64,000 nt of DNA from Naegleria gruberi. Taxonomy: Eukaryota. The notes beneath the pieces were generated by a model. The model searched no databases and had not been told where the DNA came from. It was given only the letters and a program-made list of their open reading frames with translations. The stretch lies in NCBI GenBank assembly GCA_000004985.1, contig GG738909.1; one strand, given 5' to 3'. Below, piece by piece: positions 406 through 28,743 of this stretch; position 1 is the stretch's first letter, and every line of letters begins with the position of its first letter. Position numbers and translations under genes: made by a program.

Positions 406-426
406 CAACCAACCTACATTAAAAGT

Positions 427-1905
427 TATTGTAACCTTACAAAAAAACTATTATTGGAGAGATGGTGAACTTTGCTATTGTGGTAATTTCCCGCACTTTC
501 TATTTTCATTTTTCAACAACAAAAAAAACAAATCAAACAATTATTTAAATAATAATCTAAAACAATTGATAAGAAAGAAAATGTGTACTAATAATAATAA
601 TAATAATACTCTCACTGGTAAATTAATCATGAGAAAGAACAAGGAAGAAAGTATTGAAAAGGTTTTCCAATTAATTAATTTCGGAGGCTTGAATGAATCT
701 GTTAGAGAATTTGTTCAAGATTTGTCATCTGCTACTTCTTCTGATGAAGTGTTATTATCCACTTTCAAGATCAAGGCTATTGTTCCATCTTCTGAGAAGA
801 GAAAAACAATTTATATAATTAATAATGAAAATGATTTTTCTGAAATGATGAAATTAATTCAAGAAATTCCACAAGATAAACCAATTCTTTTCAGAGTAAT
901 GAAGAAGAAATTGAATCATGAAAAGAAGGAAAGAAAGGAAAAGAAAGAAAGAAAGGTCAAACTTCAATTGACTGAAGAACAATCTCAAAGTCTTTCCGAA
1001 AAGAAGCAACAAGTTGAATTATTGAAAGATGAAATTAAGATGAAGAAGGAACAAATCAAGACTATCAAATTTGAAATGAAATCTTTGAGAAAGTCATTCC
1101 ATCATGTCAATGTTAGCATTGACTCAAATGTTCCATCTACTATTAAGTCATCTCCAAACAAGGAAGAAAGACTTAAACTCAAACTTGAAAAGAAGGAAGA
1201 AAAGAAAGCTTTCAAATTGGAAAAGAAGTTACTCAAAGCTCAATACAAGCTTGAAAAGATTGCATTGAAGAAGCAAAGAAAGCAACAAGGAAATACTTCT
1301 ACTCAACCAGAAACTGTTTCAACTACCACAACTTCTAGTGAACCAACTGTTCCAATTAACGTACCTATTGTTGAACCAGTAATTGTTACTGTACCACCAG
1401 TTCAACAAGTAACAACTGAACCAGTTTCCAACAATGATGAGATTGTCACTCCAACTGTTGATGCAAGGCTCTTGTTGAAACTCCAAAAAAAGGAACAAAA
1501 GCATGCTTTGAAAATGGAAAAGAAACTTGAAAAACAAATAATCAAAGCTCAAAGAAAATTGGAGAAACAAGGTCAAAAGCAAGAGAGAAAGGAAAGAAAA
1601 TTGTTAGAAAAGCAACAAGTTACCACTCCTTCTCAAAATTAATATTAGTTTAGAATAATTTTAACAACTATCATCAGAGAACTATTCATCAATCGTAATT
1701 TCTCCCTCCACATTTGTTGTGTCTGAGAGAATGAATTGTGAAATAGATTTTACTGAGATAGTTTAATTGCACCAGTCAATCATGATATAGCTGGATTTAA
1801 GGATCATGAAACAAATCTAAACAATATCTTGTAAATAACAAAATAAATCAATGTTACACAATTGTATGGCAAGTTTTCTATTTATTGTGGGACTATTGTA
1901 AATAT
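427..1905 (+). repeat. Copy A of a roughly 1.5-kb segmental duplication. It is inverted relative to copy B at 30225-31714.
   Basis: About 95% nucleotide identity over 5' flank, CDS and roughly 260 nt of 3' flank, by eye alignment of reverse complements. The copies differ in (AAT)n length (6 vs 8 Asn codons) and a few substitutions. Confidence 0.8.
581..1642 (+). CDS. Lys/Glu-rich coiled-coil protein (about 353 aa) with a possible PB1-like N-terminal fold. This is duplicated gene copy A.
   Basis: ATG at 581 (MCTNNNNNN...) is in frame with track ORF 347..1642. The upstream extension of the track ORF is probably not coding. A near-identical paralogue lies on the minus strand at 30488..31555. 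Confidence 0.6.
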   Translation: MCTNNNNNNTLTGKLIMRKNKEESIEKVFQLINFGGLNESVREFVQDLSSATSSDEVLLSTFKIKAIVPSSEKRKTIYIINNENDFSEMMKLIQEIPQDKPILFRVMKKKLNHEKKERKEKKERKVKLQLTEEQSQSLSEKKQQVELLKDEIKMKKEQIKTIKFEMKSLRKSFHHVNVSIDSNVPSTIKSSPNKEERLKLKLEKKEEKKAFKLEKKLLKAQYKLEKIALKKQRKQQGNTSTQPETVSTTTTSSEPTVPINVPIVEPVIVTVPPVQQVTTEPVSNNDEIVTPTVDARLLLKLQKKEQKHALKMEKKLEKQIIKAQRKLEKQGQKQERKERKLLEKQQVTTPSQN

Positions 1906-1998
1906 GACAATGTACCAAAGGTTAGTTTAAAAAAAAGAAAACAAAGGTAAAGAAAAAGGAGTGAATACATTTATATTTCACACTTTAAGAAATTGAAT

Positions 1999-2116
1999 GG
2001 CTACGGCCATATCACGATGAATGCACCTCATCCCGTCCGATTTGAGAAGTTAAGCATCGTCGAGCCACATCAGTACTGAGGTTGGAGACAACTTGGGAAC
2101 CTGTGGTGCTGTAGTC
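1999..2116 (+). rRNA. 5S ribosomal RNA gene, copy 1 (118 nt)
   Basis: GGCTACGGCCATATCAC...GGTGCTGTAGTC. The 5' and 3' ends form helix I, and a TTTTTT RNA polymerase III terminator follows. Identical copies lie at 34416 and 45238. Confidence 0.85.
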
Positions 2117-2377
2117 TTTTTTCTTAAGAACAGAACTAAATGTAAGTTATCATATTCCTTCCGTTAAGTCTTGTCTTTTCACTCCTTAATTGCATATTTA
2201 TTTTGTAATGCGATCACACCGGCCAGAAATTTCATCATGAAAATTTTTTAGCCTTCAGAAAAAATTACTTGTCACCAAAACAAAAGAAAAATCAAGCAAA
2301 CTTGTTCACTCCAAGAAGAAGATCAAAGGTTAGCGATTTTGCAAGTGTAAATAAAGAGAACCAATAATAACAATAAC

Positions 2378-4228
2378 ATGAGAAAAAGAGAAGCATTGAT
2401 GGACGAGTTTTCCGATCCATCACCAAAGAAATTATTGGATGATGATGACGAGGAAACTTCTGATTTTATTGAACATAAGAAATCGACCAAGAAGAAGAGT
2501 AGTAGCAAGACAAAGAATCAACATAATAGAACATTCTCATCATCGAGTACGGGGAGTACAGGGAGTGGTGGTGGGGAAATGTAACTTTTGGATATGGAAA
2601 AAAGCAACAACACACAAGAACACAATCATCAACATCGAGTACAGGTTCTCCTGTTGGAGGAGGTTATCAATCATCGGGTATATATGATGGTGATTCCTCT
2701 CCTGTTGTTACATCAGATAATTATGATAATAATCGATTGAATTACTCTGCATCGAATAGTAATATTGATAAATACAAGGGAATAAGTTCAAGAGATATGG
2801 GAAAGGTTAATAGTATGCCATCAATTTCGGAATCATATGAAAATTCATCATCATCATCATACTCTAATGATCCACGTATTGGTACCATGAAGAATAATTA
2901 TTATGAACAGGCAAGAAAGAGACAAAACGAAGAGAGTGGTCCATACATTTTGCAAGTTATTGCCGATATGTTAAAGTATATTTATTCATCAATTACAGAA
3001 ACTGCCAATATTGGAGGATCTAGATTGACAAGTGCTGTCTCGGGAATGAATTTCAGACAGAATCAATCCAATGCAAACCCAAGAGCAGGAGGTGATTTCC
3101 CATCTCCAGAGATTTATTTAGAACCTGAAAAGAAGCAAATTTTGGAACAATTCAAAAAGTATTGCTCTAAAAAGTTCGATATTGAGAATGACAAGCATCA
3201 AAAACTGTTATTCTCACTCTACAAGTGTTGTACTCAGAAGAAGACTATTTTAACTGAGGGAGAACATTGGAAATTCTTGGGATTCCAAAACACAAAACCA
3301 GAAACTGGTAAGTAATCACTATTGTTCTTGTGTCATATTAATAATTATCTATTCAATCATGTTTCATAACTTTGCTTGTTCAATTTCATCAATAATTGGA
3401 TCGGAATAATTATTAATAACAGACTTTAGAGGAGCAGGTATTCTTGGGTTGAGAAATTTACTCTACTTCTCCAAACATTACAAGAAGAGATTCAAGAATT
3501 ACTTTGGAAAATGTACAAATGAGATTTCTGTCACTGATGATGGTACTTTCACAAGTTATCCATTTGTTATTGCTGGGTTGAATGTGACAATGTTGCTCTT
3601 GTCCTTCCTAGGTATTGGATTCCAAGCATCTAAGGTACATAATGTGACGGCCAAGAAGAATTTCATTGAACTTTTAACATCCGGAAGAGGAAAACCAGTT
3701 CTTGAAGAGGATGAAGACGAAGAGGAGGATGAAGATTCTACACCTGTAGTTACGGAAGGAACACTGCTTTCCTTTGATGACATTCCAGAACAAAAACCTA
3801 AAAAGAAGGGAATTAATATTTTGGATGATGAAATTTCACCTGTTGTGTGGGATAATAATTCTCTGTCGTGGGATGAACCAAATTCTGCCACTTCCTCGAA
3901 AAATGTTGCTGCTGGTAGTAATACTAAAAAGTCAACAGCTGGCACCAAGCTTGTTCCAGCTTCACCTGTAAAGATATCCCAAAAGACTGAAAAGAAGAAA
4001 AAGCCAAAGGCCAAGACTGAAACTCACCAATTTAATCTCGATCTTTTCAATGAAATGTATGTGGTCGGATTTACTTGCCTTCACAGAGAATGGCACAGAA
4101 CTAAGGCAACCTATTTTGATTTTGGACGTGTTCTTGATAATGCTCGTAAACATTTGGAAGATTTATTAGAATTGAGATTTAACAGTTTTGGAGATGTTAA
4201 GGAATTCAATCAATCATTGAAAAACTAA
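2378..4228 (+). CDS. ELMO/CED-12 domain protein. Model is join(2378..~2575, -1 frame change, ..3307, 3423..4228).
   Basis: ELMO signature WKFLGFQNTKPETG|DFRGAGILGLRNLLYF spans a GTAAGT...AG intron at 3308..3422 (115 nt), with phase verified. The 5' part switches frame near the G-run at 2566-2576 (see findings). Confidence 0.6.
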
Positions 4229-4341
4229 ACATTATTTTATTCTCTTCGTGATTTAACTCTTAACCACAAGCATGGACATGATTACTGACATGCTTTACAG
4301 CCTCATCATTTTGAAAGGAAATACGTTATTCGAACAAAACT

Positions 4342-4824
4342 TTATACACTCCTATTTACAGAATTTTCCAACCAATTCGAATTGGTGGAATCACAAATAC
4401 TCAACACCAAATATTCAAACTTGCTGAGCCATTTCATATTCAGGTGTTGTTTCCTTATTTTCTGAACAACATTTCGGTAGTGCAATGAACGAGCATTCTG
4501 TTTCTGTTCTTCCCTATCAACGTGCGTGTGTGAAGAATTCCTTCTCGTTGTCGTTTTTGTGGCCTTTCCTTTCGTCCAGTGCATGGCCAATAATCGTTTG
4601 ATGAGGATTTGTTCGAGTCTTGATGAGTGCTGTTGCTGTTTGATTGGCAAGTATGTTGCATCTGTTGATAATCTCCTTTCCAACTCTAAATCTTCGTCTG
4701 GATGTGATGAAAAGTTTTGTTGATGAGGACCTAGTTGAGTTGTGTGAATACTAATAGGAATTTCCATTACACTACTATCTTCCTCTTGTTGTTTAACAAT
4801 GGGACTAGTTGTTTCTATGGCCAT
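4342..4824 (-). CDS. Hypothetical protein (160 aa)
   Basis: ATG-initiated ORF with no recognisable domain. Confidence 0.3.
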   Translation of the reverse strand: MAIETTSPIVKQQEEDSSVMEIPISIHTTQLGPHQQNFSSHPDEDLELERRLSTDATYLPIKQQQHSSRLEQILIKRLLAMHWTKGKATKTTTRRNSSHTHVDREEQKQNARSLHYRNVVQKIRKQHLNMKWLSKFEYLVLSICDSTNSNWLENSVNRSV

Positions 4825-5132
4825 AAATTCGAGATTTTCTTTTTAGTAATTTAATTTTGCAAGTCTCAGCTTGTTGAGGTATTTAAGGGAATTTCCAAAT
4901 ATGAACATCCCACTTGATGCCTCAATAATTAACAAGCAATGAAATGGCCATTATCAAGGATGCCCTGATGGACCATCTACTCCCTAATGGATCCGTTGCA
5001 AAACATGATGGCATTTTAGTTATCCGTTGAACATCAGATGCATTCAATGATTGGCATTTGATTTCATTCTCTCAATTGACTAGAAAATTGATAGAATTAG
5101 ATAATTGAAAACATTAAGTAATCTGATATGCA

Positions 5133-5615
5133 TCAAAGTTTGTGTTTTTGTTTTATTGAATGAGCATGTGATGGAAATGTCGAATCAAAGAAATCTTCAA
5201 TAAAAGTGACATGTAAGGCGTCATTCTTTTCTTCATGGTTTGGATGGTTAGGAAAATGATATTTGGATAATCTATGTTGGAGAAGAGCTGTCTTGAATTC
5301 TCTCTCTATTTCTTTGAGGGTTGATTTTGACATTTGATTGAGGAAAGTGTCAAGTGATGATGTGTTGGCATCAAATCTAGTTTTGATGTAATATTGTACA
5401 GTGTAGTGTCGCCACAGGGTTGGGTTACTTCTTTCAATTTCGTCTATTAGTAAAGAGTGATGTTTCACGATGAGATTCGAACTGATTTCGTCGGCACTAT
5501 TCGAATCTGAAATGCCACCATTCTGTTCTATCGAATAGTGTCCATAATGTTTCATCAGATTGGAAATCTGTTCATTCGATTCCTCATGATGGCAGTTAAC
5601 ATGCTTATTTCCCAT
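5133..5615 (-). CDS. Hypothetical protein (160 aa) with an N-terminal MG motif, a possible myristoylation site
   Basis: ATG-initiated ORF with no recognisable domain. Confidence 0.35.
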   Translation of the reverse strand: MGNKHVNCHHEESNEQISNLMKHYGHYSIEQNGGISDSNSADEISSNLIVKHHSLLIDEIERSNPTLWRHYTVQYYIKTRFDANTSSLDTFLNQMSKSTLKEIEREFKTALLQHRLSKYHFPNHPNHEEKNDALHVTFIEDFFDSTFPSHAHSIKQKHKL

Positions 5616-7481
5616 TGTTGTTTAGTTTTTTTCTATTGGGAATTTAAAAATTTTAAACATTCAACATCTAACAAAGGAGAACGAAAGTTGATTCATTGTT
5701 AGAAATGGATTCAAACAGTATTGCTTTGGTGTATCTGGATTGAAAGAGCTACATCTCTTTGATGACTATTTTTGGAAAGAATCAATAAAAGGCAATTTTT
5801 GATAGTAGGCGAAACTTTTAAACCCTATTCGAAATGAAGTGTCACATTGAAATTCATGACAACCCCCATCTCTGCTCCAAAAACATTTTGAAATATGTTG
5901 AGAATAATAAAATTGGAAGAAAATCGACAAAAATTTCAAATAGAAATTCGAAATTGATTTCTTTTCATTCTCTAAATGGTGTGTAAAAGATTTCAAAATG
6001 CTGATGAGATTGATTGAAATGGTTGTTGAGCATTAAAAATGCTATTCATTGTTCATGAATTTGCAATCTTGTTCAATTGGCAAGTTTACAATAATTTTGA
6101 TAAGAATTTAAATAGAATTTACATACACAGAAATATTATTTATTGAATGATTCTAATCTAGTACGAGAATTGAAACTTTCCCTTACGAGTTTGCTAATTT
6201 TCTGCTCCAAATCCAAATATTGAAATTTTCACATGCACTACTGTATGAAAATCCAAAAAAATTTACAACACATGCACGCATGTGAATGATCCTATCACTG
6301 CTTTCCAATCCCTTGAAAGGTTTTACATCCACACGTCTACACTTTTCCTATCAAATTTCATCAATTCTACTCATTTTCATCATTTTCAATAAAATTCCTC
6401 TCTTGTTTGCGCATGTAAAATTCAAAAAATTCAAAAAATTGGAAAACAGCAAAAGAAAACAAAAGAAAATTAAACATTATCAACTTGGAAGGAAATTTTT
6501 ACATTGTTCGGATCGTAACGTAATTGTCCTTGCATGGTTCTCTTCTCTCTTCGATGGAGAATATAGAAAACCAAAGCACATGGACAACAAAAGATGAAGA
6601 GCAATACCCAGACCCAAAATGGAAACTTTTCAATGTGTCCAAGGAATTTTCCCCTCTGTGCATTGGTGGTGGATGAAGCCATGATGATGATGTGATTCGG
6701 TCTAGCAATTGAGTGGAAAGTGGTTTGATTTTTTTTTTACTGAATTTTTGTTATGATTGACGAGTGAAGTGATGTGAAATGTCATTATAGGCATAATGAA
6801 TGATTCGGATAACCGAACTGTTTATTGGATGACACAATGTTAGATTGTTACCATGTTTGATTCATTAAATATATAATTGCAAAGAAGAAAGTACTATATT
6901 CGTCAACTCTTTTTTGTCCATAGCAAAGATGCATCGATATTAAGCCAAATGCAGAATGAAGAAAGTTTATTCAATGGAATATCACAGCAAGGCAAACAAC
7001 AAGAAAGTGAGTTACGCAGTCGAGACTCTAAGGTTTTGTTTCATTGACATTCCAAGACTTCCTCAACTTGGCGGAGACATGCTGGTGAATCCAACAAGAA
7101 ATGCCAAACTTGGAATATTCCGCGTATTGGTGAACTTATTCTCCTTAATAACTCGACTAGTATCATTTAAGGATGTGCATATATCCAATTTTATCCATCC
7201 TTAGCCCGCCTTTTTTTGCCGCCATTTAGCATTACCAAATCAAAAAAAAACTAAGGGATTCATCCTCCGTAGAGAACAATTTGCTGAATCAAAGGACCAA
7301 ACAAACAATTAAACTTTCTCAATAAAGTATACTTTAAAAAACAAACAAAAGTTATTAAGAGCATTAATATATTAGCTTCATCACACTAATATATTACTAC
7401 GCCTCTCATTATATATATATTAATTGTAATAAGCATCATTATCAAGAAAATTAAATAATATCTTTCTATTAAGGAATAATT

Positions 7482-9043
7482 ATGAAGGTATTGAAAAGAT
7501 GGATCAAGATGATACCCTCCGAGTCTTCCAATCAATGTGAATGTTGTTGTACGTTTGATAGTAGCAAGGGAAATAGTAAGAGTGTTCTTCCGGTGATGGA
7601 AAGCACTTCCAGTGCATCTTGTTATCGAGTCTCCTTTGATGATATGTTGTGTGAAGATGTCATTGTTATAATTTGTTCCTTCTTGGGAGCAGAGGAGTTG
7701 TGGAATAATACTAGAAGGGTGAATACGAGTTTTAGAAATCAAACAATGAAGGATAGATTGTGGAAGGAACTGTATCATTTGAGGTGGGGCAATTTGAATG
7801 AATCTCTTGTTGTCAATTCATGTGTCTATCATCAGCAGATTGAGGCATCAATTCCTTGGTGGCAGATATACATGCAAAGGTTTGTACTGTTTTTCACTAT
7901 CTTGTTAACAAATTATCTTTTGATTTTTCACATAGACACAAATGGTTATCGTTCGAGTTTAATACATTGGAAAGAAAGTGTCCAACACTGAATGTGATGG
8001 AGGAACTGTTCTGCTCTGTGAATTGTCTGGAAAGTGGGATGGCATTCTATGAGAGATTACACTCACTTGGCAAAATCGCAAGCGAATGTGGTCTCCACTT
8101 GATTTCACAGCAACAAACAAAGAATACCAAGTCACAAGCTTCCACCAATCCACTGTATACAGTCCCTAAATCCAATGTTGAAGAATGCGTCATGTTTTGT
8201 AAACTATTCCTCAAGGCCTATTATGGAAAAGCAACAAGTTATGTTCAAGGTCCCAGCAGACTTTTCTCTGCCTTACTAAATTTGCAAGTGATCTTTTTAC
8301 TAGTCCAATCGTATTCTATAAGTGGAGAATACGACAAGACAATTGCCTACTCGACAGAGTGTTTGGATGGCATCCACACTATTAAGCAACAATACTCATC
8401 AGAATCGACAAGCTCTGATGAGCTTATGATGAGTAAGATTGAGGAAAAGTGCATCTTCTACAGAGGTTACTCATCCCACAAGTTGGGACTCTTCACTCAA
8501 GCAGAGAGGGATCTTGAGGTGGCAGAATCCGTGTACTCCGTTTCATCATGTGCACAAGAAGAGTACTGCTCCCCAATAAGAGAAGGTACCATTAACAATT
8601 CGAGAAAGTACTACCACCTCATGAATATTCAATTCACACTCATTAATAACCATATCAAACTGAAACAATTCCAACAATCTTTAGAGTATTTCATCAAATT
8701 GATTTCACTCATGAGAAGTGCCACAGATAGCCAGCAAATCATTGGAAAGTCTTCCATAACCATTGAATCAATGGATGAGAAATCATGGAACCTACTCAAT
8801 TTGTGGTTTCCTGGATTGCCATACTTTTTCCTTGCTGAATTTCTTTACAAACAACAGGACTACTTGTCCTCCAACATTCTCTTTGAGAAATATAGCAACT
8901 ATGAGCAAGGAAGAAAGCTTTCCGTGCATAAGCATCAAAAACAAACACCACCATCCAATCCTTCCAAAGATAAGCAATTGGTTCATGCCATGAGCAGAAT
9001 TAATCAAATAAATTCTGTCATCCAAAGTGATCAAGAATATTGA
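7482..9043 (+). CDS. F-box protein. Model is join(7482..7879,7936..9043).
   Basis: F-box motif VIVIICSFLGAEELWNNTRRVNTSFRNQTMKDRLWKELYHLRWG. A 56-nt intron (AG|GTTTGT...CATAG) joins track ORFs 7482..7991 and 7856..9043 in phase. Confidence 0.65.
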
Positions 9044-9078
9044 TCCACAGAAGTATTTATTCCAATATATAATATTAA

Positions 9079-9743
9079 TTAATGTTTTTCAGAGAGACGA
9101 CGAATAGGTTGATGCTTGGCATGTTGAGCTTGAGCAATTGATTCAATAGTTTTGGTCAAATAGTCCAAACTTGTTGTGATATTTTGTTTTTCATCATCAC
9201 TACTAGATCCATAATTATTCAATTGTGTTACATAGAAATTCAAATGATCTTGAGGTGACTTGACAAGTAAATCAACCAATTTACTTTCATCATTCTCAGT
9301 CAACCACTTTTTATAAGCATCATTTGTTTGTTTTTCTCTTTCCAAATAGGAAAGAATTTTAGGAACTGAACTATAATATTGTTTATAAGGAGCCAACAAT
9401 TGTGATGAAACAGTTGAAAATAACGATCCAAATCCTGCATAATTATTCTTATTGGAAAAATCTTCCAATCTTGTCAAGGTGAAATGATGTAATTTTGTAA
9501 TAATATTTAAACTACTAGAAATATTATGAAGATAATTTTCTTCTTGATGATGTTCTTCGGATTGATGACAAACGGAATGAACAAGAGGTGAAGATTCCTC
9601 ATCAGCGAGTGGTAATAAATATTTCTAATAATATTTAGGATAAATCTTGGTCAATTAATATTGAAACTAACCTGTATCAAAGTATTGAGTTGATCAATGT
9701 AGGACTTTTCGGCTTGAATCAAAGTTTGGACAATTTCTGACAT
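9079..9743 (-). CDS. Small Dbl-homology (RhoGEF)-like protein of about 205 aa. Model is complement(join(9079..9624,9672..9743)).
   Basis: Exon 1 (MSEIVQTLIQAEKSYIDQLNTLIQ) looks like a DH-domain start, followed by a 47-nt GTTAGT...TAG intron. A later DH-like block is LVDLLVKSPQDHLNFYVTQLNNY. Phases were checked. Confidence 0.5.
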
Positions 9744-9972
9744 TTTTTATTGGTTTTACTTTGTCATAAATCAATGTCAAATTTACAGAGCACCATTTTA
9801 GTGTTTTGGAGATAAAAATAATGCCAATAGATGTAATATCAAATTATTATTATTTTGTAATTCGTTCAACAAAAAACGTTAAATGATGAATTATTAGTTT
9901 TTTGTAACAATGCTAAAGCACAGTTGTTATGTAGACTGTATAAGTAGAGCATAGATTCAATCAACATGTATA

Positions 9973-10044
9973 TCCCGTGTAGTCCAATGGCTAGGATACC
10001 TGGCTTTCACCCAGGAGGTCCGGGTTCAATTCCCGGCATGGGAG
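9973..10044 (+). tRNA. tRNA-Glu (anticodon TTC)
   Basis: Cloverleaf: acceptor TCCCGTG/CATGGGA, anticodon loop CTTTCAC, T-arm GGTTCAATTCC. Confidence 0.85.
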
Positions 10045-10269
10045 GATAATTTTAGGTTTTGCCTTATTAATTTAAAGTGGGTTTGTCCAAACTACAGTTG
10101 TGTGTTTAAATTTTATTCAAATGAACAGAAATCCCCAGAACCTCAGAGTTCAGATATCGCAAACATGGATGATAGATAGCAAGACCAAATCTTGCCAAAA
10201 ACATTTTCACCTTAATAGGGATGTGCTCGGCAGGTCCTTATATACAAAATCCCCCTTTAGTCCATTAAA

Positions 10270-10578
10270 TTGTCCAAACTGATTCAGTTTCTGAATAACA
10301 AAAACAAAATGAGAGCATTTGTGATTGTAGACGAAACCTCTAAAACCAAAGATCGATGCAGCAACCCACTCCCAAAGACAAAAGCACCCAACAAACGAAA
10401 AGCCACCCAACAACCAGATTATTGTCACAACATCTTTCAGTGGCATTCGGCACCCTCTAACTCGATGGTAAATAATTTCAACAACAGCAGAGAATCTACC
10501 ATGATGCATTCCAAATATCTTCCCAACAATGATGATACCTATTTTGATGACTTGTGGGAAGCATTCATGAATGATTAA
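10270..10578 (+). CDS. Hypothetical small protein. An overlapping antisense ORF at 10207..10509 (-) encodes a putative TM peptide. Which strand is coding is unresolved.
   Basis: Two overlapping ORFs of about 100 codons on opposite strands, with no homology signal. Confidence 0.2.
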   Translation: MSKLIQFLNNKNKMRAFVIVDETSKTKDRCSNPLPKTKAPNKRKATQQPDYCHNIFQWHSAPSNSMVNNFNNSRESTMMHSKYLPNNDDTYFDDLWEAFMND

Positions 10579-10754
10579 TTATATTGCTTCATTCTCAATA
10601 ATAAACTTTCCAAAGTAAGCAAAGCAGTTGTTGAAATTACCCAATCTTCAAGATTCTCCGGATTACTAAACTCAATAAAAGACAACAACTCTCTTCTCCA
10701 ATTTCACAAAGTTGCGCTTTTACGAAACGAAAAAAAGTAAGAACGGAGCAAATA

Positions 10755-12988
10755 ATGAAACGAGTCTCTCGAATTGGGATTGAAGGAGAGCAGCAACAAG
10801 AACCTCAGCAACGTCGACAACAACAACCACAAACATCAACAACAGAATTAGCATCATCATGTCCGAACCTACATGTATTAGTACAGCACCAACACCAGCA
10901 CCATAATCCAGAGAAGTATCTTGCTGTTACTACATGTACTAATCTTCATACTAAAAGTCCTTCTTCTTCATCGTCATCAACATATGAACATGAGCATCAC
11001 ACACCAGTAACAAACATTGTCATGCAACAAGCAACAATATCGTTACCTTCTTCACCAGTTGTGAATAACGAATCATCTTTACCATCAACATGTTCAGCAA
11101 GGATAACATTACATCCCATCTCATGTAAACGTTGCAAAAGTAGACATACTAGATGTGATAGAGTCTTACCAGCATGTAGTTATTGTTTAAAGAACAATTT
11201 CGAATGCATGTATGAGACTCCAAAAAAGTTAAGGAAGAATTTCAATGCAGAGTTTGTCGATCTGAATGAGAAGACATCAAGTAGCATGCATGCATCAATC
11301 ACACATCCACAACAACCCAAGTCCAAGTATAAGGTCTATAAGTTCAAGTTGAATACCAAAACTAAAGCTGAAGATGAGGAACCAATGGAAGAATGTGAAA
11401 AATATTGTGTAATTGATGATAAACCAATGTCAGCAAGGAAATTAGTGGAAGAACATTCTCATGTGATGGTGATGGTGATGGTGATGGTGATTCCCATAGA
11501 GAAAATGCTACTTTTGAGTTTAGAAATGAAATCAGACTCTTTGCAAAGAACTTTCTTGAATCATCATTGGATTATTATTCGAAACATATTTCGTAAGTTG
11601 AAGTATTTGATTGGAAGAAGTAGTTACCAAGTTGTATATATGGAAGGTTTGGGAATGACATTATGACAAGGGCAGATGTGTTGACTTTGTTGGACTTGAC
11701 AAACTCGGAAAGTTTACAATTATTCCCAGATGATTTGTTAGCACTAATGTATGCCTCACAAGCATTGATTCTGTATTTTAAGGAAGAATGGCGAGAGGCA
11801 GAGGAATACTACAACAAGTGCATTCAAATATTGGAAGATGAAACCGAATCAAATAGGCTTCTTTGTCTTTCTACCACTTTTGAGAATAGGACAATGTTTT
11901 TCACATCGAATAGAATGGATTCTCAGTCTCTGTTCTTGATAGGAACTAGGTTAATATTGTGTCAGTACAAATTGTCGATGGGAGATTTGAAAGAAGCTGT
12001 AAAATTTGTTAGATTGGCAGATGTCATGCTGGATGAAAGGTTTCCTGTATTTAAGGAACAAAGTTTTTTACCAATCAATGCTAATGAAATACCTCAAAAT
12101 CTATTTGATGGAATATCAAAGGAGGAAATTCTAATTATCAAAAAGAGGATTCATTGTGGAATGCTTTTGGATGAATTGAAATTCACACTGGAAAACCTAA
12201 AAGAATACATACAACCTGAATCAATGGTTTCCTCTCCACTTTTCAATAATCAATCATTCATACTGAAAGAAAGTAGTACTTTCCAATTTTCTTCATTTGT
12301 GAATAGATTTGTCTTTGGAAATTCAATAGATATCAGAGGTAGATGTAAATATGAACTGCTGTGTTTGTTGCAGTCCCCTAATGTGATTTTTAGGAATCAG
12401 ACTAATGTACCCTTCTTAATAATAGGAATAGCTGAGAATAATGTGAAACATTTGGAAGAAGAAGCTTTGGAACAATTTGGAATTGGAAAAGTACAAGCTA
12501 TTTCACTGAATGAATCATCAAGTCTAGATTTAAACGAGTTTAATCAAGTAGTATTCGTGTTACAGAAAATATACTTGACTAGTTGCAGTCTGCTTGTTCT
12601 CCACGAAATAATAATCAACAGCTCCCAACAATTTACACAACAATGTGATAGTGAAATTGTTGAAAAGTGTAAAATATGGAGGAGTGCCTTTGCAGACGAG
12701 CTTAGTGATTATTATGCACTACTACCAACAGAAACAGTAAATATTTGCTTATTGGTTGTGGCTGTGTTCGTGGTGGCAAACATTCATGCTGACCTGATTC
12801 GAAGAGAGCTGCTCAACAAAACTCCTCCGCCCGCGTTACTTGTGCGTAGAATGAGGAATGATTTTAGATTGCTCTCACTTTTAAAGAGAAAGTTTTCCAA
12901 CTGGTTTGGAAGTTATCATAATAAGTTGTGCGAGAATATAGAAAACTTATTGAACGAAATTGCAATACTTAATAAAGAAAATTTATAA
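10755..12988 (+). CDS. Zn(II)2Cys6 binuclear-cluster transcription factor. Model is join(10755..11592,11676..12988).
   Basis: Zn2Cys6 motif CKRCKSRHTRCDRVLPACSYCLKNNFEC. An 83-nt GTAAGT...GCAG intron joins two track ORFs in phase. Includes a Gln-rich N-terminus and a (GTGATG)5 repeat coding VMVMVMVMV. Confidence 0.65.
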
Positions 12989-13043
12989 GTATTTCAGAAT
13001 GATAAGATTTCCAACATGGTGTCATACAATGTGACACACGGAT

Positions 13044-14729
13044 TTAGTATCTATGATGATCTGAATCTCTTCCTGGAGTGTTATGCTCTTGAATTGAGGC
13101 AACATTGAAAAAATCTTCATTTTTGTTTCCTTCCTGTTGACTGGTTGTCTTCAGGTAAATCTTTTTCAGTAATCTTTTGAATACACCACCAATTAAGGCA
13201 AGTAAAATACCCAACAGACCTATTCCACAAATAATAAAGAATATCAAAAAGAATTTAGAACCTGAATTTTTCAGTTTAAGATCGCCATATCCAATAGTTG
13301 TTAGTGTAATAAATACAAAGTAGAGACTATCACCAAACACCCAATCTTCAAATGCCATAAAGATGAGAGCTCCAACAATGGAATACGTTGCCACTAGGAA
13401 GAAGAAATATACAATTTGACTAAGAGGATGTTTCACAATTACAGAAACAACTCGTTCTATCCTACTAGTCTTTCTTTGAGTGGAATTGAAACTGCATGAC
13501 ATGCAGAGTTTGATGAAGAATACTATAATATTGGAAATTAAGGTGAGGAAGGATTTGGTGTTTTGCATTAACTTTTTAAATAATACTCCTGTCATGGCTC
13601 CCATCGTTGCCAATCCCAAAATACCAAATAAAACTACAAATAGTTTTCCTGCAACTGTTTGAGGAACAACATCTCCATATCCTACAGTAGTAACTATTTA
13701 GACGAAAGTTAAAAGAATTGTATGATTTGAAATTAACTTACACGTCACAGTACTAAAATACAAGCAATTAGTATAATACCAATGGTCAATATTGAATAAA
13801 TCATAGGTAATGTCTGTCTCATTAGAGGAAGTGGTAACGTTATTAATGGTAAAGTTACTGGTCATTTGATTCAGGGTTTGAGCTTCATAGGTTCCCTCAA
13901 TTAACCAAATTGGAACACTAGCAACAAGGAGGAAGATGAAAATTGATACTATCAACAATAAGGCATAGCAACAATTCTTGGAGAATTGCTTACAGGTAAT
14001 ATCTTCCACTTGGAAATATTCATCAGCTGTGTTATGTCGAGTTCTTTCACTACGTTTGTGATATCTGGATTGGTAATATTCATGATCTACTTTCTTTTCC
14101 TTCCTAAAGCTTTGATTGGACAAAGCCATATACTCATACCTAGCATTTAGACTTTCAAATAAAAAGTCTGAAACATGACACATTGCCATGCAGGTTTCTC
14201 TTTCATCCAATTCATTGTACTGTCCTGTTGTCTTTTTCCACATTAATGATTCAATATCTGAAACATCTGCCAACACTGTTTGAAAAACATCAAAATTCGA
14301 TATCGTTACTTGATAGTCCTTTTTGAAATAATCTTTAGACAGGTATTGTCTCGCCACTACACAATATCTTCCATCAGGGTATTTAGCTCTAGCCACTAAA
14401 AAGTCATCCTGTTCGTCCACATAATTTATTTTCATCCTCCTTGGTGAAATTAGCCTCCTATTGTTACTACTAGTTCCATCTGTATTATCGGTATACAATG
14501 AATTCTTATCAATTTTGACACTAGACAATTCATAATTTCCTGTCATCATTGATGGGTCTTCCGACAATCGTATAGGCACAGAAAGTTCTGGTAACTCTCT
14601 TCTCGATGATGATATTGATGGTGGTAAAAGTCCATCTTCACTATAACTTGAATTCATCACCTGAATATCTGGCACTTCATACGAATCTTTATCTAACAAA
14701 CTTTCCGTTAATTCTTTTCTTGATGACAT
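13044..14729 (-). CDS. Two-pore-domain (4TM/2P) potassium channel. Model is complement(join(13044..13693,13742..14729)).
   Basis: Two selectivity filters: TFTTVGYGD (spanning a 48-nt intron) and TLTTIGYGD. Each lies between hydrophobic helices. There is a long cytoplasmic N-terminus. Confidence 0.75.
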
Positions 14730-15309
14730 GATGTTTTTCTAGAACTATTACCCATGATGTGTCAAAAACAATGACTATTTGGTGTTGAAATAATGACACA
14801 GAGGGTGTGTTTCTAATTTTTTGTTTGGTGTGCTGATGGATAATCTAGAACGAATCATGAGGTGGCAAAAGTGAATGAACCCATTTTGGAGGAATAAAGG
14901 TCCGCAAAATATCTTCTTTACATGGAAGAATCCTTTGATTACCAAGCCATGATAATTTGCTTATAATCTTGCTAGCCTACTACAACAATTTTTTAATTCC
15001 GAACAATAATAAGGCTGTGATTCAAATATTGAGGAAGCCACTCTGGAAGTGACCGTTAAGAAGTTTTCTATTTGGCGCTATTTTTTTAAAAAATATTTAA
15101 AATAAAAAAGTGATACAATGTTTCACCATCACAACAACAGAACAAGGTTGACTCTTCGTATCCTTGTTTTGACCAACGTTTAAAAATGTCTACACAACAG
15201 GGTCAGTTTGTCTATGCGTGTGTCTATCGTAAATTGATCAAACACAAAGGAACAGCAGCAAATATTAGTAATGTTAATCATCACGAGGAAGAAATAATAA
15301 TTTTGGAAG

Positions 15310-15582
15310 ATGAACAGAACAAACCAGAGTATTCCATTGAACCGTAATGCCAGTGCTAATGCTCAGTCAGAATTCAAATCAATTTCTAATGAACCAATAC
15401 TAGAAGAAGAGAGAGTGAAGAATAATGGAATAGTAAGCAAAATCTTGACGTATTTTAATACAGAATATGTTGATCCACTAATCAAGCTTCAACAAGAGAT
15501 AGAAAGGGCAAGAGCTAACTGTCCAGATCGTGTGCTTATGTACAACCGTATAATTGGTACCGATAACAGATATGGTGACTGA
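15310..15582 (+). CDS. Small hypothetical ORF (90 aa) upstream of the cyclase gene. It could be a separate gene or non-coding.
   Basis: ATG ORF with no recognisable domain. Confidence 0.2.
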   Translation: MNRTNQSIPLNRNASANAQSEFKSISNEPILEEERVKNNGIVSKILTYFNTEYVDPLIKLQQEIERARANCPDRVLMYNRIIGTDNRYGD

Positions 15583-15985
15583 TTATTGTCCATATTCAGT
15601 TTCATACAAAACATCAGAGGACATTTCAGTGACAGAACAATTGACAAATGTGGATGATTAGTTGTTAATTGAGTATTTTATTGGCCTATAATGACATCAC
15701 CATAATAAGAGTAAGACCGCATGCAAGAATATTCTTCCTACAAAATACCACTATTTAATTAGAAAAACTACGAATAAGGTTGTGATGCTCCATAACGTTT
15801 TCCATAAGTTCATAAGTATTTTGTACCTGACTTCCTGAAAAGAAATATAATTTCATTTTACTACATCCTTATTAGTTTTATATGATTCCCGCCATACAAA
15901 TCTCATTGGTTATGATTTTGTTATTGAGCAAGGTATTTGATTATTTCATCAACTCAGCCAGTTCAATTTTAAAAAAACCAGAATA

Positions 15986-18900
15986 ATGACATCTCTCAAT
16001 GTTAATGTGTTTGACGATAGAGGTTCAAACAGTTCTCAAAGTAATTCGAGGGTGCTGCTCTCTCCACCTCAGGGAGCCAACAATTACTTACTAATTCCAA
16101 CCAGTAACTATGCAGGATCATCAGTATGTTCCTCTGACAGACATTCCAAAACTGACATTTCAGGTTCTGAAGTTAATGCGGTAACAAAACTGAAGAACTC
16201 GACTTTGGAGTTTGTACTCTTCATACAAGACAACCAAGTGAAGGAGGGAATCTATGGTTATGTGATAACCTTGTTGATTCACTTGTACATGTTTTGGATT
16301 GGAATTTTTCTACCAAATCTTGGACCAGAAATGATGTACGGAGATTGGGGAACATGGATTTTCTCAGTACTCAACTATGCTATTACTCTCTCATTTGAAA
16401 GGATCCCTTATAAGGGAGGTATTGTATTGGCTTTTATTGGAGTAGGTATTGTATTGGTATTTGTAATTCTATTGATCTGGACAATCTTTGCCTACAAGAC
16501 AACCTCCCAACATTTAAAGAACTCGAGAAGAGCTATTGCCATCTTTTCCAAAGTATTTCCATTCATATCAGTACCTCTCTTGTACTTGATGACATTCTCT
16601 CTTGATTGTAATTATACAGTAAGCTCATCAAATCTGAATAGATTTGAATTCTATTCCCATGAGGTGATCCAATGCCACGATACTAGCAATATTATATTTG
16701 TGGTGGTAATGATCTTGGCCATCCTGTTATTGATTATACTCAATGTATTCTCCATGCTCATTGTACCAAACTGCCATCCTCAAAATATAGCTCCATTTGT
16801 GACCGATAATCCAGTTTTCATGAGCTTGTTAGTTGCCTTCAATCTGTGGCAACTCTTTTTACACTTTATCATTCCAACACAATACTCTTTTATGAGAGCT
16901 ATTGTTCATAGTGTTGGATCTATTATTTTAATTATAATTTTTGCCAAGCTGATTCCATTCATTAGAAGAATTGAGAATAGTATTGTATTTGGTTGCCTGT
17001 TGGCTAGATTAGCTTCGAGTATTGGAGCTATTGTAACTTCTATTGTAAATAACCCATCCCTATCAAAGATACTGCCATCGGTGGATAATACACTTGGTGT
17101 TGGACTTGCAGGTCTAACTATTGGTTTGATTATTATTGGTTTTGTGCTTGGTTTCTCCCTTATGGAATTGTATACGAGATTTATTGTGAGATCTATTAGA
17201 AACTTTGTTCTGGAATGTATTCAATCAGATAATGATGAAACAAATCTAGATTCCAAAGAAACTGAAAAATACATTGAGAAAGAAGCACAAATTATTTATC
17301 AACAGTTGGTTGAGTCAAGAAAATTAAGGCACCTTAGAATATTCTTTAAATTTTCTATGAAATTCAAAGAAAAATATCCAACGGAAAAATCAGAAACGCC
17401 CACACAGCACAATCTACTCGATATTTATATTTGTATTGCTCTGATTAAGGGGTTCTCTTCCAATAACCAATTAGATAATGAGATTATCCTTCTCTCTAGT
17501 ATGATTATTGCAAATTATTTGCCAAACGAGGTCAATTCTACAACATTTGCTCAAGGACTTTTGAAGAAAGCTTTTAAAAGAAGACCATCCACTTACTATA
17601 ATTTATTAATTAGTCTAGCTCAAAAACAAGTAGAAGCAACGGTCTATCAAACCAATCCAGAGAGCAGAAACAATGTTGAAATGGCCAAGCTTATTGGTCA
17701 CTTAGAAAGAAGACAGGATGAATTACGAGCACTTCACAGAGCTTTCTGGAAGGAAATCATGCAAGAAAATATCAATCATGAAAAATGTGAATCTATTATT
17801 GTAAGGATTGGGATATTGTCTCATGAATGTGAAACTAAATTCAAGAATTTAATGCACATTTACAAAAACGACAAGACAGTTCTTCGATGTGTTGCTAAAT
17901 ATGTAGAATCTTTTAAATTCAATAAGGAAGCTGCTCAGGAATTATATTCTGAAGCAACAACAATTGAAGAAGAGGATTCCAAACGAATGAATGCCTCCTC
18001 TAAAAGAAGAATTAAAAAGAACCAAAAGAACAGAGTGCATCCTCAACAAATCAGTCACGCTTTTGAGACGTTATCTTATGGTGATGCTAATCATCATGAG
18101 GTAGAGTCCACTGTTGTAGGAGATTTGAATAACGATTTTGGTGGTGTTGAGAATAATCCAGAATTGAAGAAGGAGCTTCTGTTCAGGAATGCATTGGCCA
18201 TCTCACATAAGAATCATTCACATCTCACAATGTTTTTCATTTTCATTGTGCTATCCTTGCTAATTTTGGTTTCAACATTAGTAATGAGCTTGATGTTTTC
18301 GAATTATGTTACTGAGAGCGTACTTGTTGTGGATACTGCCTGTACACCGATTGCATCTGCTATTCGAATTGTTAGTGGAACAAGAAGTTATCAGAGCTCT
18401 CTATTGTTGTACAGTTCCAATTCATCAGCTTGGCCTTCATTATTGGCAGAATATGGCTACTCGAGCCTTTCTGAATTCAAGAAAGCTCACAAGAAAGAGC
18501 TAAGGGATAATATTGATTACTTAATTCTATTGAAAGAGCTAGCACAAACAGCCAAGTTTACCACTGATATGTACTCTGAATTTCATGAATACTACTATAG
18601 CTTTAATCAACCAAAGGCAAATACTAATGGTTTGGAAAAGATTTACAACTCTACCACAGCTATCAATATTACCATTGCAGATATTACTAATTTGGCTATA
18701 ACCTATTCAGAGCAGATTTACAAATTTGAAGATGAGGATTATCTACATACTTTCAGCAGTTATCCTTTCATGATACTATTCAACAATAGGAATATTATGA
18801 CAGCAGCTTATTCTTCATTCTGTTACAAATTTGTTGAGGAATCCAAGAGCTATACCAAGACGATTTCCAATACTTTTATTATTTACTACTCTTGCTCAAT

Positions 18901-21257: not shown

Positions 21258-21840
21258 TTTATTTTGAGCTCTGTTATGAACAAAGATGAGTTCTAAATGA
21301 AAGACCTCCAGTGAATAGGCTTGCCAAACGAGGTGCAAGATTAAGCAACAAATCCCAAAATGAGAATTGATTGTGTTTACACTCCGTAATTCACATCAGC
21401 GGTGTTGCTCAGTTTGGAAGAAATTCAAATGGTTCATATTGAGATATTTCACTTTGATAGTTTGATAGGGATGAGTATATTCTGTATTGACTTAATAAAT
21501 TGTAGTTAACCATCAGTTTACTTCACAATAAAGATGTGTAAGTGTATTAATGTCTCTTGTATCAAAAACGACCTGAGAGACCACACTTTTCGGCATTTAA
21601 GGACTCTGTGCAACATTTGAATGATTTGGGTTAAGATTGAGTGCCTAAAGTAGGCAGTTTACTTCACATAATACGCACTTCTAGTTGCTTTCATGTGTTT
21701 CAGAGTAATAAGACGGTGCCATTTTCTGTTGTTCCAACTAAAGAATTTTTCACCACTGTCACATGCAAACCGCCCTCTATGAGAAAACTAATCTTATCAT
21801 ACGTAATTAGTCAACCAATTACTTTCCATCTCATAAAAAA

Positions 21841-22570
21841 ATGGTTAAAGGTTTACTTTTGACTCTTTTAGCAGTCCTTGTTGTCATTGTTGCTGTTGTA
21901 CATGCACAACAATCAACATGTGGTTCCTTGTCAAACAATTCTCGTTACATTAACCTTGTCGGTTCTTGGAGAGAAACTTCGAGTGGTAAGATTTGGACCA
22001 GTGTTCAACAGGGAAATCATTTCACTTGGACACAACAAGGTACCAATAGAAAGGCAACTGGTTTTGTTGGTAAGTAAACTATAGTTTCGAATGAACATGT
22101 CATTTGTGTTTGTGAAAATAGTTGCTCCATGTCAAATTTCTACTGCAGTTGCATATATTACATTTGATGGAAGTACTCATTGGAAAGTTAGTATTTCCTC
22201 CGATGGAGAAATTATTCGTGGACCTTCAGAAACTTTTACTAGAGTGAATGCTACTCAACCAGTTGCTCAACCAAGAGGTCAATATAAGGAAAAGTCAGGA
22301 AAGATTTGGACTGTCACTGGCTCTACTTGTCATGCTTTTACTTTGCGTAATCAAGGTAAGTTTCGAATAGTTTCAGATAATTAAAAATTCTTAATTGAAA
22401 CAGATGGAAGAACTGCTGAAGGTTTCTACTCAAATGATGAATCTACTGGATTGACTACTATCTATATTACATTCCATGATCCTACTGGAGATACTATTTT
22501 GAGATCAACTACTCCTAATATGGATATTTGGCAATTATCGAATGGTGATGTTTTCAGAAGAGTTGTTTAA
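21841..22570 (+). CDS. Small secreted protein with two internal repeats. Model is join(21841..22069,22122..22355,22404..22570).
   Basis: Signal peptide MVKGLLLTLLAVLVVIVAVVHA. Two GTAAGT...AG introns of 52 and 48 nt have consistent phase. The repeat SGKIWT..G occurs twice. Confidence 0.6.
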
Positions 22571-22579
22571 GGAAATAAA

Positions 22580-24305: not shown

Positions 24306-24550
24306 CTTTGCAAAATAACTATGATTGTTAAATTGTGATTTTACTTACCATCTTGTCGTGTGATGCAAAATCTTCTCCCTCATTATGTGTTCATTTTTTT
24401 TGTGAAGTTTCGTCCAAGTTCTTAGAATGTTCCAAACTGACCAGTGGTGGCTACCGTCAATTATTAACAATAGTTCCATTGTTGACCTGATGTTTACTTT
24501 ACAAAAATTTCACAATAAATTGACTTGAGAAATTCAACAAATATTTATCC

Positions 24551-28700: not shown

Positions 28701-28743
28701 TAACAATACAATTACCTTGTATTATGTTTCGAATAATCAAATT

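What the first reader, a model, noticed from the sequence alone, without database searches (positions are those of the whole stretch)
427..1905. About 1.5-kb inverted segmental duplication of a complete gene, 28 kb apart
Region 427-1905 and the reverse complement of 30225-31714 are roughly 95% identical across the promoter-proximal flank, the CDS and about 260 nt of 3' flank. They differ by an (AAT)6 vs (AAT)8 tract and a few codons. Both copies keep intact ORFs. This is either a recent duplication or ongoing gene conversion. An assembly artefact must also be excluded.
Basis: seen in the sequence. Interest (0 to 1): 0.55.

Follow-up and report, generated by a model that had tools for sequence, protein, structure and literature searches.

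The report
Young inverted gene duplicate in Naegleria
A 1.5-kb stretch holding one complete gene of unknown function occurs twice, in opposite orientation and 28 kb apart, on a Naegleria gruberi chromosome; it is a real, fairly recent gene duplication of an ordinary kind.

Summary
Window 423-1914 (+) and 30211-31716 (-) form an inverted repeat: 95.9% identity with gaps counted, 40 substitutions, 7 indel events. The window is the Naegleria gruberi NEG-M reference scaffold and has no gaps.

Each copy is a single-gene cassette: about 160 nt of 5' flank, an intronless ORF of 353 or 355 codons, and about 270 nt of 3' flank. Flanks outside the repeat are unrelated. I found no terminal repeats, target-site duplication, poly(A) tail or transposase.

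Both ORFs look like working genes. Codon usage matches the host in frame, dN/dS is 0.36, and the only CDS indel is the in-frame (AAT)6/(AAT)8 difference, against 6 indels in 430 nt of flank.

Divergence is patchy. CDS 581-1012 and the 3' flank are nearly identical, while CDS 1013-1642 has dS of about 0.07. This suggests gene conversion between the arms.

An independent metagenome contig, 97.9% identical, spans the 3' junction of copy B, so a plain assembly artefact is unlikely.

The protein has no detectable homologue. It has a small N-terminal alpha/beta domain followed by three long Lys/Glu-rich helices.

How the duplication arose is unresolved. It could be a simple DNA-level inverted duplication or a by-product of a 28-kb inversion. 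Interest is low.

The parts
423..1914 (+). Copy A of the duplicated 1.5-kb single-gene cassette
   Evidence: Inverted-repeat arms I1-I3; BLASTN 95.9% over 1497 columns; alignment A1.
423..580 (+). Copy A 5' flank, presumed promoter and 5' UTR. It starts 18 nt after the stop codon of the upstream PPR gene.
   Evidence: 5 substitutions and 5 indel events of 9, 1, 3, 4 and 6 nt, most not multiples of three. In-frame codon-usage score is about 0, so it is non-coding. PPR ORF 61-405.
581..1642 (+). Copy A ORF: 353 aa, intronless, homologue-less basic protein (pI 9.8)
   Evidence: ORF (taken from the ATG at 581). Codon-usage score +0.43 bits/codon in frame and negative in the other frames. dN/dS 0.36. 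No Pfam family and no homologue.
590..607 (+). (AAT)6 tract encoding Asn6 if translation starts at ATG 581. Copy B has (AAT)8 at 31523-31546.
   Evidence: Sequence read directly; alignment.
1643..1914 (+). Copy A 3' flank, presumed 3' UTR and terminator. It ends 85 nt before a 5S rRNA gene.
   Evidence: 3 substitutions and one 5-nt indel in 1643-1889. No Rfam match at E <= 1 in the 3' flank (the one match in the unit, SNORD20 at 826-894, lies in the CDS, is below gathering score, and I take it as chance) and no unusual folding energy.
30211..31716 (-). Copy B of the cassette, in inverted orientation
30488..31555 (-). Copy B ORF, 355 aa
   Evidence: ORF list; tblastn 95.2% identity to copy A; codon-usage score +0.44 bits/codon.
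30211..30487 (-). Copy B 3' flank. Its junction with the unique spacer and the EFC38297 gene is confirmed in an independent metagenome contig.
   Evidence: L001 (ENA ERZ929261, 788 bp) aligns to 30335->29676 at 97.9% and carries the copy-B-specific variants across the junction.
31556..31716 (-). Copy B 5' flank. It starts 71 nt after the stop codon of the upstream BTB-domain gene (31787-32863, minus strand).
1915..30210 (.). The 28.3-kb unique interval bracketed by the two inverted copies; a candidate inverted or invertible segment.
   Evidence: It holds ordinary single-copy genes: 5S rRNA, ELMO, Zn2Cys6, PAS-adenylate/guanylate cyclase, G-alpha, protein kinase and EFC38297. tblastx of 1915-12000 against the rest of the window found only the 5S genes, and the repeat finder found no other long repeat in the window.

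Best explanation
This is a genuine, evolutionarily young, DNA-level inverted duplication of a 1.5-kb single-gene cassette in the nuclear genome of Naegleria gruberi NEG-M. The cassette consists of about 160 nt of upstream flank, an intronless ORF of 353/355 codons and about 270 nt of downstream flank. Both copies sit in intergenic spacers between unrelated genes. Both are still protein-coding and under moderately relaxed purifying selection. Since the duplication, patches of the two inverted arms (roughly CDS 589-1012 and the 3' flank 1643-1889) have probably been homogenised by gene conversion. The encoded protein is a basic protein with no detectable homologue: a small N-terminal alpha/beta domain followed by three long Lys/Glu-rich helices, the last two being an internal repeat. 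I infer, with low confidence, a structural or scaffolding role, possibly binding nucleic acid. Shown here: the repeat, its boundaries, the coding signal, selection on both copies, the mosaic divergence, and the reality of one junction of copy B. Inferred: gene conversion, a DNA-mediated origin, and the protein's function.
For: Repeat and boundaries.
Organism and assembly: six ORFs in the window are identical to N. gruberi proteins on a 250,472-bp scaffold, and there are no Ns.
Unique flanks: tblastx of the flanks of copy A against the rest of the window finds only the 5S genes.
Coding status: a 353-codon open frame at 33% GC has a chance probability of about 3e-7 for the whole window. Codon usage in frame scores +0.43 bits/codon, against 0.11-0.38 for annotated neighbours. 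NG86 gives dN 0.018, dS 0.050, omega 0.36, with a binomial p = 0.015 against neutrality. There are 6 indels in 430 nt of flank but only one, in-frame, in 1062 nt of CDS (Poisson 6e-6).
Mosaic divergence.
Independent junction support.
Against transposition or retroposition: the best terminal alignment scores 9 over 37 nt. The 5' flank with its indels is shared. No poly(A) tract abuts the end of homology. There are no transposase or RT domains.
Protein architecture.
Against: With only two sequences, gene conversion cannot be told apart from regional differences in constraint or mutation rate; the test on synonymous sites alone is weak (p = 0.09). Neither junction of copy A has independent support. 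I could not search the rest of the N. gruberi genome, so the copy number genome-wide is unknown. No expression evidence was available. dN/dS of 0.36 rests on only 25 substitutions.
Confidence: 0.78

Rival explanations
1. Inversion-coupled duplication. The 28.3-kb interval was inverted through staggered breaks at one breakpoint. Fill-in and end joining then left the 1.5 kb between the staggered nicks as inverted copies at both ends of the inverted segment (model of Ranz et al. 2007). This is an alternative account of how the duplication arose, not of what it is. The two arms could now also flip the interval by homologous recombination.
For: There are exactly two copies, in inverted orientation, bracketing one contiguous block of unique genes. 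The sequence is non-repetitive within the window. The 1.5-kb size lies inside the 46 bp to 1.9 kb range reported for Drosophila breakpoint duplications. In that study 59% of fixed inversions carried such duplications, and in 12 of 18 only one breakpoint region was duplicated (PMC1885836). There are no transposon or retrocopy signatures.
Against: No outgroup gene order was available, so an inversion has not been demonstrated. Any inverted dispersed duplicate brackets some interval. The mechanism has not been documented in Heterolobosea. The copy-B 3' junction seen in L001 fits both this model and a plain duplication.
Confidence: 0.3
2. An old duplication kept similar by continuing gene conversion between the inverted arms. 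On this view the 4% divergence understates its age.
For: Mosaic divergence with a 288-nt identical run (permutation p = 0.002) and silent-site heterogeneity (p = 0.004-0.008). The edges are more diverged than the core: 7 of the last 25 nt differ, and the 5' flank is indel-rich.
Against: Homology ends abruptly at both edges, with no gradient of decayed similarity in the outer flanks. Even the most diverged block has dS of only 0.07.
Confidence: 0.2
3. The unit belongs to a multicopy repeat or mobile-element family that carries its own ORF, and the window happens to contain two members.
For: The unit is compact and fills intergenic spacers as a self-contained cassette. Neither ORF was retrievable from the protein collections, which could mean it was repeat-masked before annotation.
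Against: There are no terminal inverted or direct repeats, no target-site duplication, and no transposase, integrase or RT domain. No third copy or fragment is in the 64 kb. The neighbouring PPR and BTB genes also lacked a 100% hit in the protein collection, so absence from it is uninformative.
Confidence: 0.06
4. One copy is a processed retrocopy of the other's mRNA.
For: The gene has no introns. An A-rich tract (1925-1957) lies about 10-25 nt beyond the end of homology in copy A.
Against: 158 nt upstream of the ATG is shared, including promoter-like AT-rich sequence. The A-rich tract does not abut the homology end. No target-site duplication was seen.
Confidence: 0.04
5. Assembly artefact: a divergent allele or chimeric clone inserted at a second place.
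For: Not directly excluded for copy A, because no reads were available.
Against: The window has no gaps. The copies differ by 4% and 7 indels, with distinct unique flanks on both sides of each. The copy-B junction was recovered independently from a metagenome of a strain 97-98% identical.
Confidence: 0.03

Closest known systems
Inverted duplications at inversion breakpoints (staggered-break model; Ranz et al. 2007, PLoS Biol 5:e152, PMC1885836)
   Same: Two inverted copies of an otherwise unique, gene-containing sequence bracket a chromosomal segment. The 1.5-kb size is within the reported range of up to 1.9 kb. No transposable element is present at the junctions.
   Different: No outgroup shows that the 28-kb interval is actually inverted. 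The organism is a heterolobosean amoeba, not Drosophila. Here both copies remain intact, whereas many Drosophila copies have degenerated (mean identity about 88%).
Inverted paralogue pairs homogenised by intrachromosomal gene conversion, such as the palindrome arms of the human Y chromosome or inverted repeats in yeast (from my own knowledge)
   Same: Inverted arms on one chromosome with long identical tracts interrupted by diverged blocks.
   Different: The arms are only 1.5 kb and 28 kb apart. Identity is 96-98% rather than above 99.9%. Conversion is inferred from mosaicism only.
Taxonomically restricted (orphan) genes of Naegleria
   Same: No homologue in 5.8 billion or 1.84 billion protein sets or in JGI metagenomes, and no Pfam domain. 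Pangenome work reports many species-specific Naegleria genes of unknown function (PMC9928731).
   Different: Here the gene is present as a young pair with measurable purifying selection, which supports its being a real gene rather than a spurious ORF.
Gene-carrying DNA transposons, Helitron captures and processed retrogenes
   Same: A compact, self-contained one-gene unit copied to a second intergenic site.
   Different: The defining features (TIRs, TSD, Helitron termini, poly(A) tail, transposase or RT) were looked for and not found.

Membership tests
Dispersed (segmental) inverted gene duplication | Two copies with statistically significant similarity over the whole gene and its flanks, in opposite orientation | tested here: met
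   BLASTN 95.9% over 1497 columns, E = 0; arms on opposite strands.
Dispersed (segmental) inverted gene duplication | Each copy embedded in unrelated unique sequence on both sides | tested here: met
   Homology stops within a few nt at 423/31716 and at about 1898-1914/30211-30227. tblastx of the outer flanks finds only 5S genes.
Dispersed (segmental) inverted gene duplication | Both loci supported by data independent of this assembly | tested here: inconclusive
   The copy-B 3' junction is present in ENA metagenome contig L001. The copy-B 5' junction was missed by 147 nt in L002. Nothing was found for the junctions of copy A.
Inversion-associated inverted duplication (staggered breaks) | Inverted copies of ancestrally unique sequence lying at the two ends of one segment | tested here: met
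   The copies bracket 1915-30210, and the unit is not otherwise repeated in the window.
Inversion-associated inverted duplication (staggered breaks) | An outgroup or ancestral arrangement has a single copy and the interval in the opposite orientation | not testable with these tools
   No other N. gruberi strain genome is searchable here. N. fowleri shows little synteny with N. gruberi (PMC6125883).
Transposable element (DNA transposon, Helitron or LTR) | Terminal inverted or direct repeats and a target-site duplication | tested here: not met
   The best local alignment of the two termini scores 9 over 37 nt with many mismatches. Junction sequences read directly show no duplicated target.
Transposable element (DNA transposon, Helitron or LTR) | Encodes a transposase, integrase, RT or Rep-helicase | tested here: not met
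   No Pfam family reaches its threshold. There is only a weak sub-threshold DUF6474 hit in the Lys/Glu-rich region.
Transposable element (DNA transposon, Helitron or LTR) | Multiple copies across the genome | not testable with these tools
   Only two copies occur in the 64-kb window.
Processed retrogene | Homology limited to the transcript, ending in a poly(A) tract and flanked by a target-site duplication | tested here: not met
   158-161 nt upstream of the ATG is shared. No A-tract directly abuts the end of homology in either copy, and no TSD was seen. The transcript limits are unknown, so this is not absolute.
Gene conversion between paralogues | Tracts of identity significantly longer than expected from the overall divergence, including at silent sites | tested here: inconclusive
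   A 288-nt identical run (permutation p = 0.002). Pooled silent-site blocks differ (p = 0.008). But synonymous sites alone give p = 0.09, and there are only two sequences.
Any described protein family (Pfam, PDB) | Significant sequence or fold match | tested here: not met
   Pfam: nothing above threshold. PDB sequence search: best E = 0.27. Foldseek against PDB: best E = 0.88, on a low-confidence model.

The most novel reading that the evidence does not exclude
The two copies are the molecular footprint of a recent 28-kb chromosomal inversion generated by staggered breaks. They now form a recombination substrate that can flip this gene block (cyclase, G-alpha, kinase and others) between orientations in N. 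gruberi populations. At the same time they doubled the dose of a lineage-restricted basic coiled-coil protein. This would be the first breakpoint-level description of an inversion mechanism in a heterolobosean.
Probability: 0.25. Interest if true: 0.35.

Novelty: new member of a known kind. Interest (0 to 1): 0.17.

Why it matters
The biological importance is modest. The pair is a clean, datable example of how a free-living amoeba gains a second copy of a lineage-specific gene. It also gives evidence of purifying selection on an ORF with no detectable homologue, which supports treating that ORF as a real gene. The arms are 1.5 kb at 96-98% identity, which is long and similar enough to mediate gene conversion or inversion of the 28 kb between them. 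Anyone assembling or comparing N. gruberi strains should therefore expect orientation polymorphism or short-read assembly breaks at this locus. If the pair marks an inversion breakpoint, the staggered-break mechanism would extend well beyond Drosophila.

Tried and rejected
1. Homology of the protein. Two word-indexed searches of 5.8 billion proteins (full length and the 97-aa N-terminal domain) found nothing. Neither did an exhaustive phmmer of 1.84 billion representatives, a JGI metagenome scan, Pfam at E <= 10 or PDB sequences.
2. Exact look-ups of five start-codon variants of the two ORFs found none in the collection. I first read this as 'unannotated, perhaps repeat-masked'. I dropped that inference after the neighbouring PPR and BTB genes also failed to return a 100% hit.
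3. Structure. AF2 on the full protein and on the N-terminal domain gave pLDDT of about 61-62. Foldseek against PDB returned only E > 0.8. The beta-alpha-beta-beta-alpha-beta topology is therefore only a lead.
4. A hidden RNA gene or structure in the well-conserved 3' flank. Rfam at E <= 1 gave one sub-threshold SNORD20 hit, inside the CDS. Folding z-scores were -0.7 and -1.3. Rejected.
5. A larger ancient inverted block with decayed paralogous neighbours. tblastx of the flanks found only 5S genes. Rejected.
6. Terminal inverted repeats, TSD, piggyBac-type TTAA or Helitron ends: nothing convincing.
7. Independent contigs for the other three junctions. L002 ends 147 nt before the copy-B 5' junction. 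The PPR hit P0014/L003 is only 41% identical and is irrelevant.
8. The N. gruberi genome paper (Cell 2010) is not held in the library.

Full report
**What the window is.** Six ORFs in the window are identical, residue for residue, to Naegleria gruberi proteins: EFC38291, EFC38292, EFC38254, EFC38297, EFC38303 and EFC38264. All are recorded on one 250,472-bp contig. The window is 33% GC and has no N. It carries three dispersed 5S rRNA genes and four tRNA genes. This is therefore nuclear DNA of the amoeboflagellate N. gruberi NEG-M, not a prokaryote. The bacterial-style ORF lists were read with that in mind.

**The observation.** The repeat finder reports three collinear inverted arm pairs:
- 423-483 / 31656-31716
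- 586-1722 / 30408-31544 (1137 nt, 98%)
- 1715-1914 / 30211-30410

BLASTN merges them into one alignment of 1497 columns with 95.86% identity, 34 mismatches and 7 gap openings. A global alignment gives 40 substitutions and 28 gap columns. Homology starts abruptly at 423/31716. It ends cleanly at about 1898/30227, followed by about 16 nt of weak similarity. The only other repeats of at least 60 nt in the window are the three 5S genes. A protein-level search found no third copy.

**Anatomy.** Each copy is a complete one-gene cassette.
- Copy A: 5' flank 423-580, ORF 581-1642 (353 aa), 3' flank 1643-1914.
- Copy B, on the minus strand: 5' flank 31716-31556, ORF 31555-30488 (355 aa), 3' flank 30487-30211.

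The cassette nearly fills the intergenic spacer at both sites. Copy A begins 18 nt after the stop codon of a PPR-repeat gene and ends 85 nt before a 5S rRNA gene. Copy B begins 71 nt after the stop codon of a BTB-domain gene and ends 163 nt before the start of EFC38297. The outer flanks are unrelated. The 28.3 kb between the copies holds ordinary single-copy genes: ELMO, Zn2Cys6, a PAS-cyclase, G-alpha and a kinase.

**Is it a gene?** Several lines of evidence say yes.
- A 353-codon open frame at this base composition is expected about 3e-7 times in the window.
- In-frame codon usage scores +0.43/+0.44 bits per codon against a model built from the six annotated genes. Those genes themselves score 0.11-0.38, and the other five frames are zero or negative.
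- The upstream in-frame extension that exists only in copy A (347-580) scores about 0, and copy B has stops there. The start is therefore ATG 581, or possibly ATG 629.
- Between the copies there are 15 non-synonymous and 10 synonymous differences: NG86 dN 0.018, dS 0.050, omega 0.36, with an excess of synonymous change at p = 0.015.
- Indels are informative. There are 6 events in 430 nt of flank, most not multiples of three. There is only one in 1062 nt of CDS, the in-frame (AAT)2 difference. The Poisson probability at the flank rate is 6e-6, or 0.02 using the 3' flank alone.

Both copies have thus been kept open by selection since they diverged.

**The protein.** It has no Pfam family. Nothing scored E <= 0.001 in 5.8 billion proteins, either for the full length or for the N-terminal 97 aa. 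The same was true of 1.84 billion representatives read exhaustively. JGI metagenomes held no relative, and PDB sequences gave nothing significant.

AlphaFold without an alignment predicts three long helices with pLDDT near 90: residues 112-178, 194-236 and 295-347. They are separated by disordered Ser/Thr/Pro/Val-rich linkers. The second and third 'linker + helix' modules are an internal repeat (z = 14 against shuffles). The N-terminal ~100 residues fold as beta-alpha-beta-beta-alpha-beta, but at pLDDT 62. Foldseek finds nothing better than E = 0.88.

The protein is basic (pI 9.8; 75 K+R against 48 D+E). A structural, scaffolding or nucleic-acid-associated role is my inference only.

One caution applies. 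Exact look-ups did not find either ORF in the protein collection. However, a query made from the neighbouring PPR and BTB genes also returned no 100% hit. I therefore cannot say whether GenBank carries a gene model here.

**Age and mosaic divergence.** Differences are unevenly spread.

| Block | Substitutions | Note |
|---|---|---|
| CDS 581-1012 | 2 in 432 nt (adjacent pair) | dS 0.013 |
| CDS 1013-1642 | 23 in 630 nt | dS 0.074; Fisher p = 6e-4 against the first block |
| 3' flank 1643-1889 | 3 in 247 nt | less than adjacent synonymous sites (9 in 127), p = 0.004 |
| 5' flank | 5 in 158 nt | plus five indels |
| last 25 nt of the unit | 7 in 25 nt | |

The longest identical run is 288 nt (permutation p = 0.002). 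Pooling the 'silent' blocks gives p = 0.008. This is the pattern expected from patchy gene conversion between the arms after a duplication at dS of about 0.07. With only two sequences, regional constraint cannot be excluded, and synonymous sites alone give p = 0.09.

**Artefact?** Several facts make an artefact unlikely.
- The window is gap-free.
- The copies differ by about 4% and by seven indels.
- Each copy is joined to different unique genes on both sides.
- The exact-sequence cluster of EFC38297 contained a 90-aa protein from an ENA metagenome. Its 788-bp contig (L001; ERZ929261 / ERR1078381 / PRJEB11402) aligns to window 30335->29676 at 97.9%. It runs from inside the 3' flank of copy B, through the copy-B-specific end of homology, into the unique spacer and the EFC38297 gene.

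So this junction exists in an independently sequenced, slightly different strain.

A second contig from the same sample (L002, 97.2%) covers the BTB gene but stops 147 nt short of the copy-B 5' junction. The junctions of copy A could not be checked.

**How it arose.** Transposition is not supported. There are no terminal repeats, no target-site duplication and no transposase-like domain. Retroposition is not supported either. About 160 nt of upstream sequence is shared, no poly(A) tract abuts the homology end, and the A-rich tract near copy A lies 10-25 nt further on. A DNA-level break-repair event is therefore the most likely origin.

One specific version deserves mention. Two inverted copies of an otherwise unique 1.5-kb sequence bracketing one block is the footprint left by inversions made through staggered breaks. 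In Drosophila, 17 of 29 fixed inversions carry such duplications, up to about 1.9 kb, often from one breakpoint only (PMC1885836). Under that model one junction of each copy is ancestral and the other is new. That cannot be tested without the gene order of a close relative. N. fowleri is too rearranged to serve (PMC6125883). I give this version about 0.25-0.3.

**Verdict.** It is nevertheless an ordinary kind of event: a young, small, inverted gene duplicate in a eukaryotic genome, with probable gene conversion. The duplicated gene has no detectable homologue and an unknown function. Recent paralogy seems unexceptional in this genome. Another gene of the window (FM149, 62285-63517) has an 86%-identical paralogue on another scaffold. 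Interest is low.

Noticed in passing
window 1999-2117, 34416-34534, 45238-45356 (all + strand): Three dispersed 5S rRNA genes (Rfam 98-105 bits). They share about 25-39 nt of conserved upstream sequence (ATATTTCACAyTTTAAGwAAyTGAAT) and a T-run terminator, but have otherwise unrelated flanks. One lies 85 nt downstream of copy A.
   Followed up: partly
window 44810-45578: A small cluster of Pol III genes: tRNA-Gln(TTG) at 44810-44882, 5S rRNA at 45238-45356 and tRNA-Ala(AGC) at 45505-45578, all on the + strand. The tRNA-Gln overlaps the 5' end of a mechanical ORF (43220-44911, minus strand).
   Followed up: no
window 49768-49860: A 91-93-nt tRNA-like gene (Rfam tRNA, 47 bits) to which ARAGORN could not assign an anticodon ('tRNA-???'). 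It is probably a long-variable-arm or intron-containing tRNA such as Leu or Ser.
   Followed up: no
L001 (ENA ERZ929261 k127_427496) and L002 (k127_589738): A public metagenome (run ERR1078381, project PRJEB11402) contains contigs 97-98% identical to this N. gruberi scaffold, so a close N. gruberi-clade strain was present in that sample. It is a possible source for strain comparison of this locus.
   Followed up: partly
L001:664-788: The last ~125 nt of the metagenome contig do not align with the window. The EFC38297 orthologue there runs into a stop after 90 called residues. This may be a chimeric contig end or a structural difference.
   Followed up: no
window 61-405 (PPR gene end) and 31787-32863 (BTB gene): A query built from the C-termini of these two genes returned no 100%-identical N. 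gruberi protein from the 5.8-billion collection. It returned only an 89% ENA hit and a 41% JGI hit. Either these genes are not in the public N. gruberi protein set or the collection is incomplete for this genome.
   Followed up: partly
window 62285-63517: The gene for protein FM149 (EFC38264) has a paralogue, FM148 (EFC45731), on another scaffold of 502 kb. They are 86% identical over 400 aa. This is another fairly recent duplicate, here between scaffolds.
   Followed up: partly
window 2737-3315 and 3449-4228: Two adjacent + strand ORFs hit consecutive parts of the ELMO/CED-12 domain (profile positions 3-60 and 70-124). This is probably one gene split by an intron, just downstream of copy A and the 5S gene.
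   Followed up: no
window 908-940 / 1175-1207 and protein residues 178-240 / 238-353: The duplicated gene itself contains an older internal duplication: a Ser/Thr/Pro-rich linker plus a 'RLxLKLxKKExKxAxKxEKKL...KAQxKLEK' helix, present twice (z = 14).
   Followed up: yes
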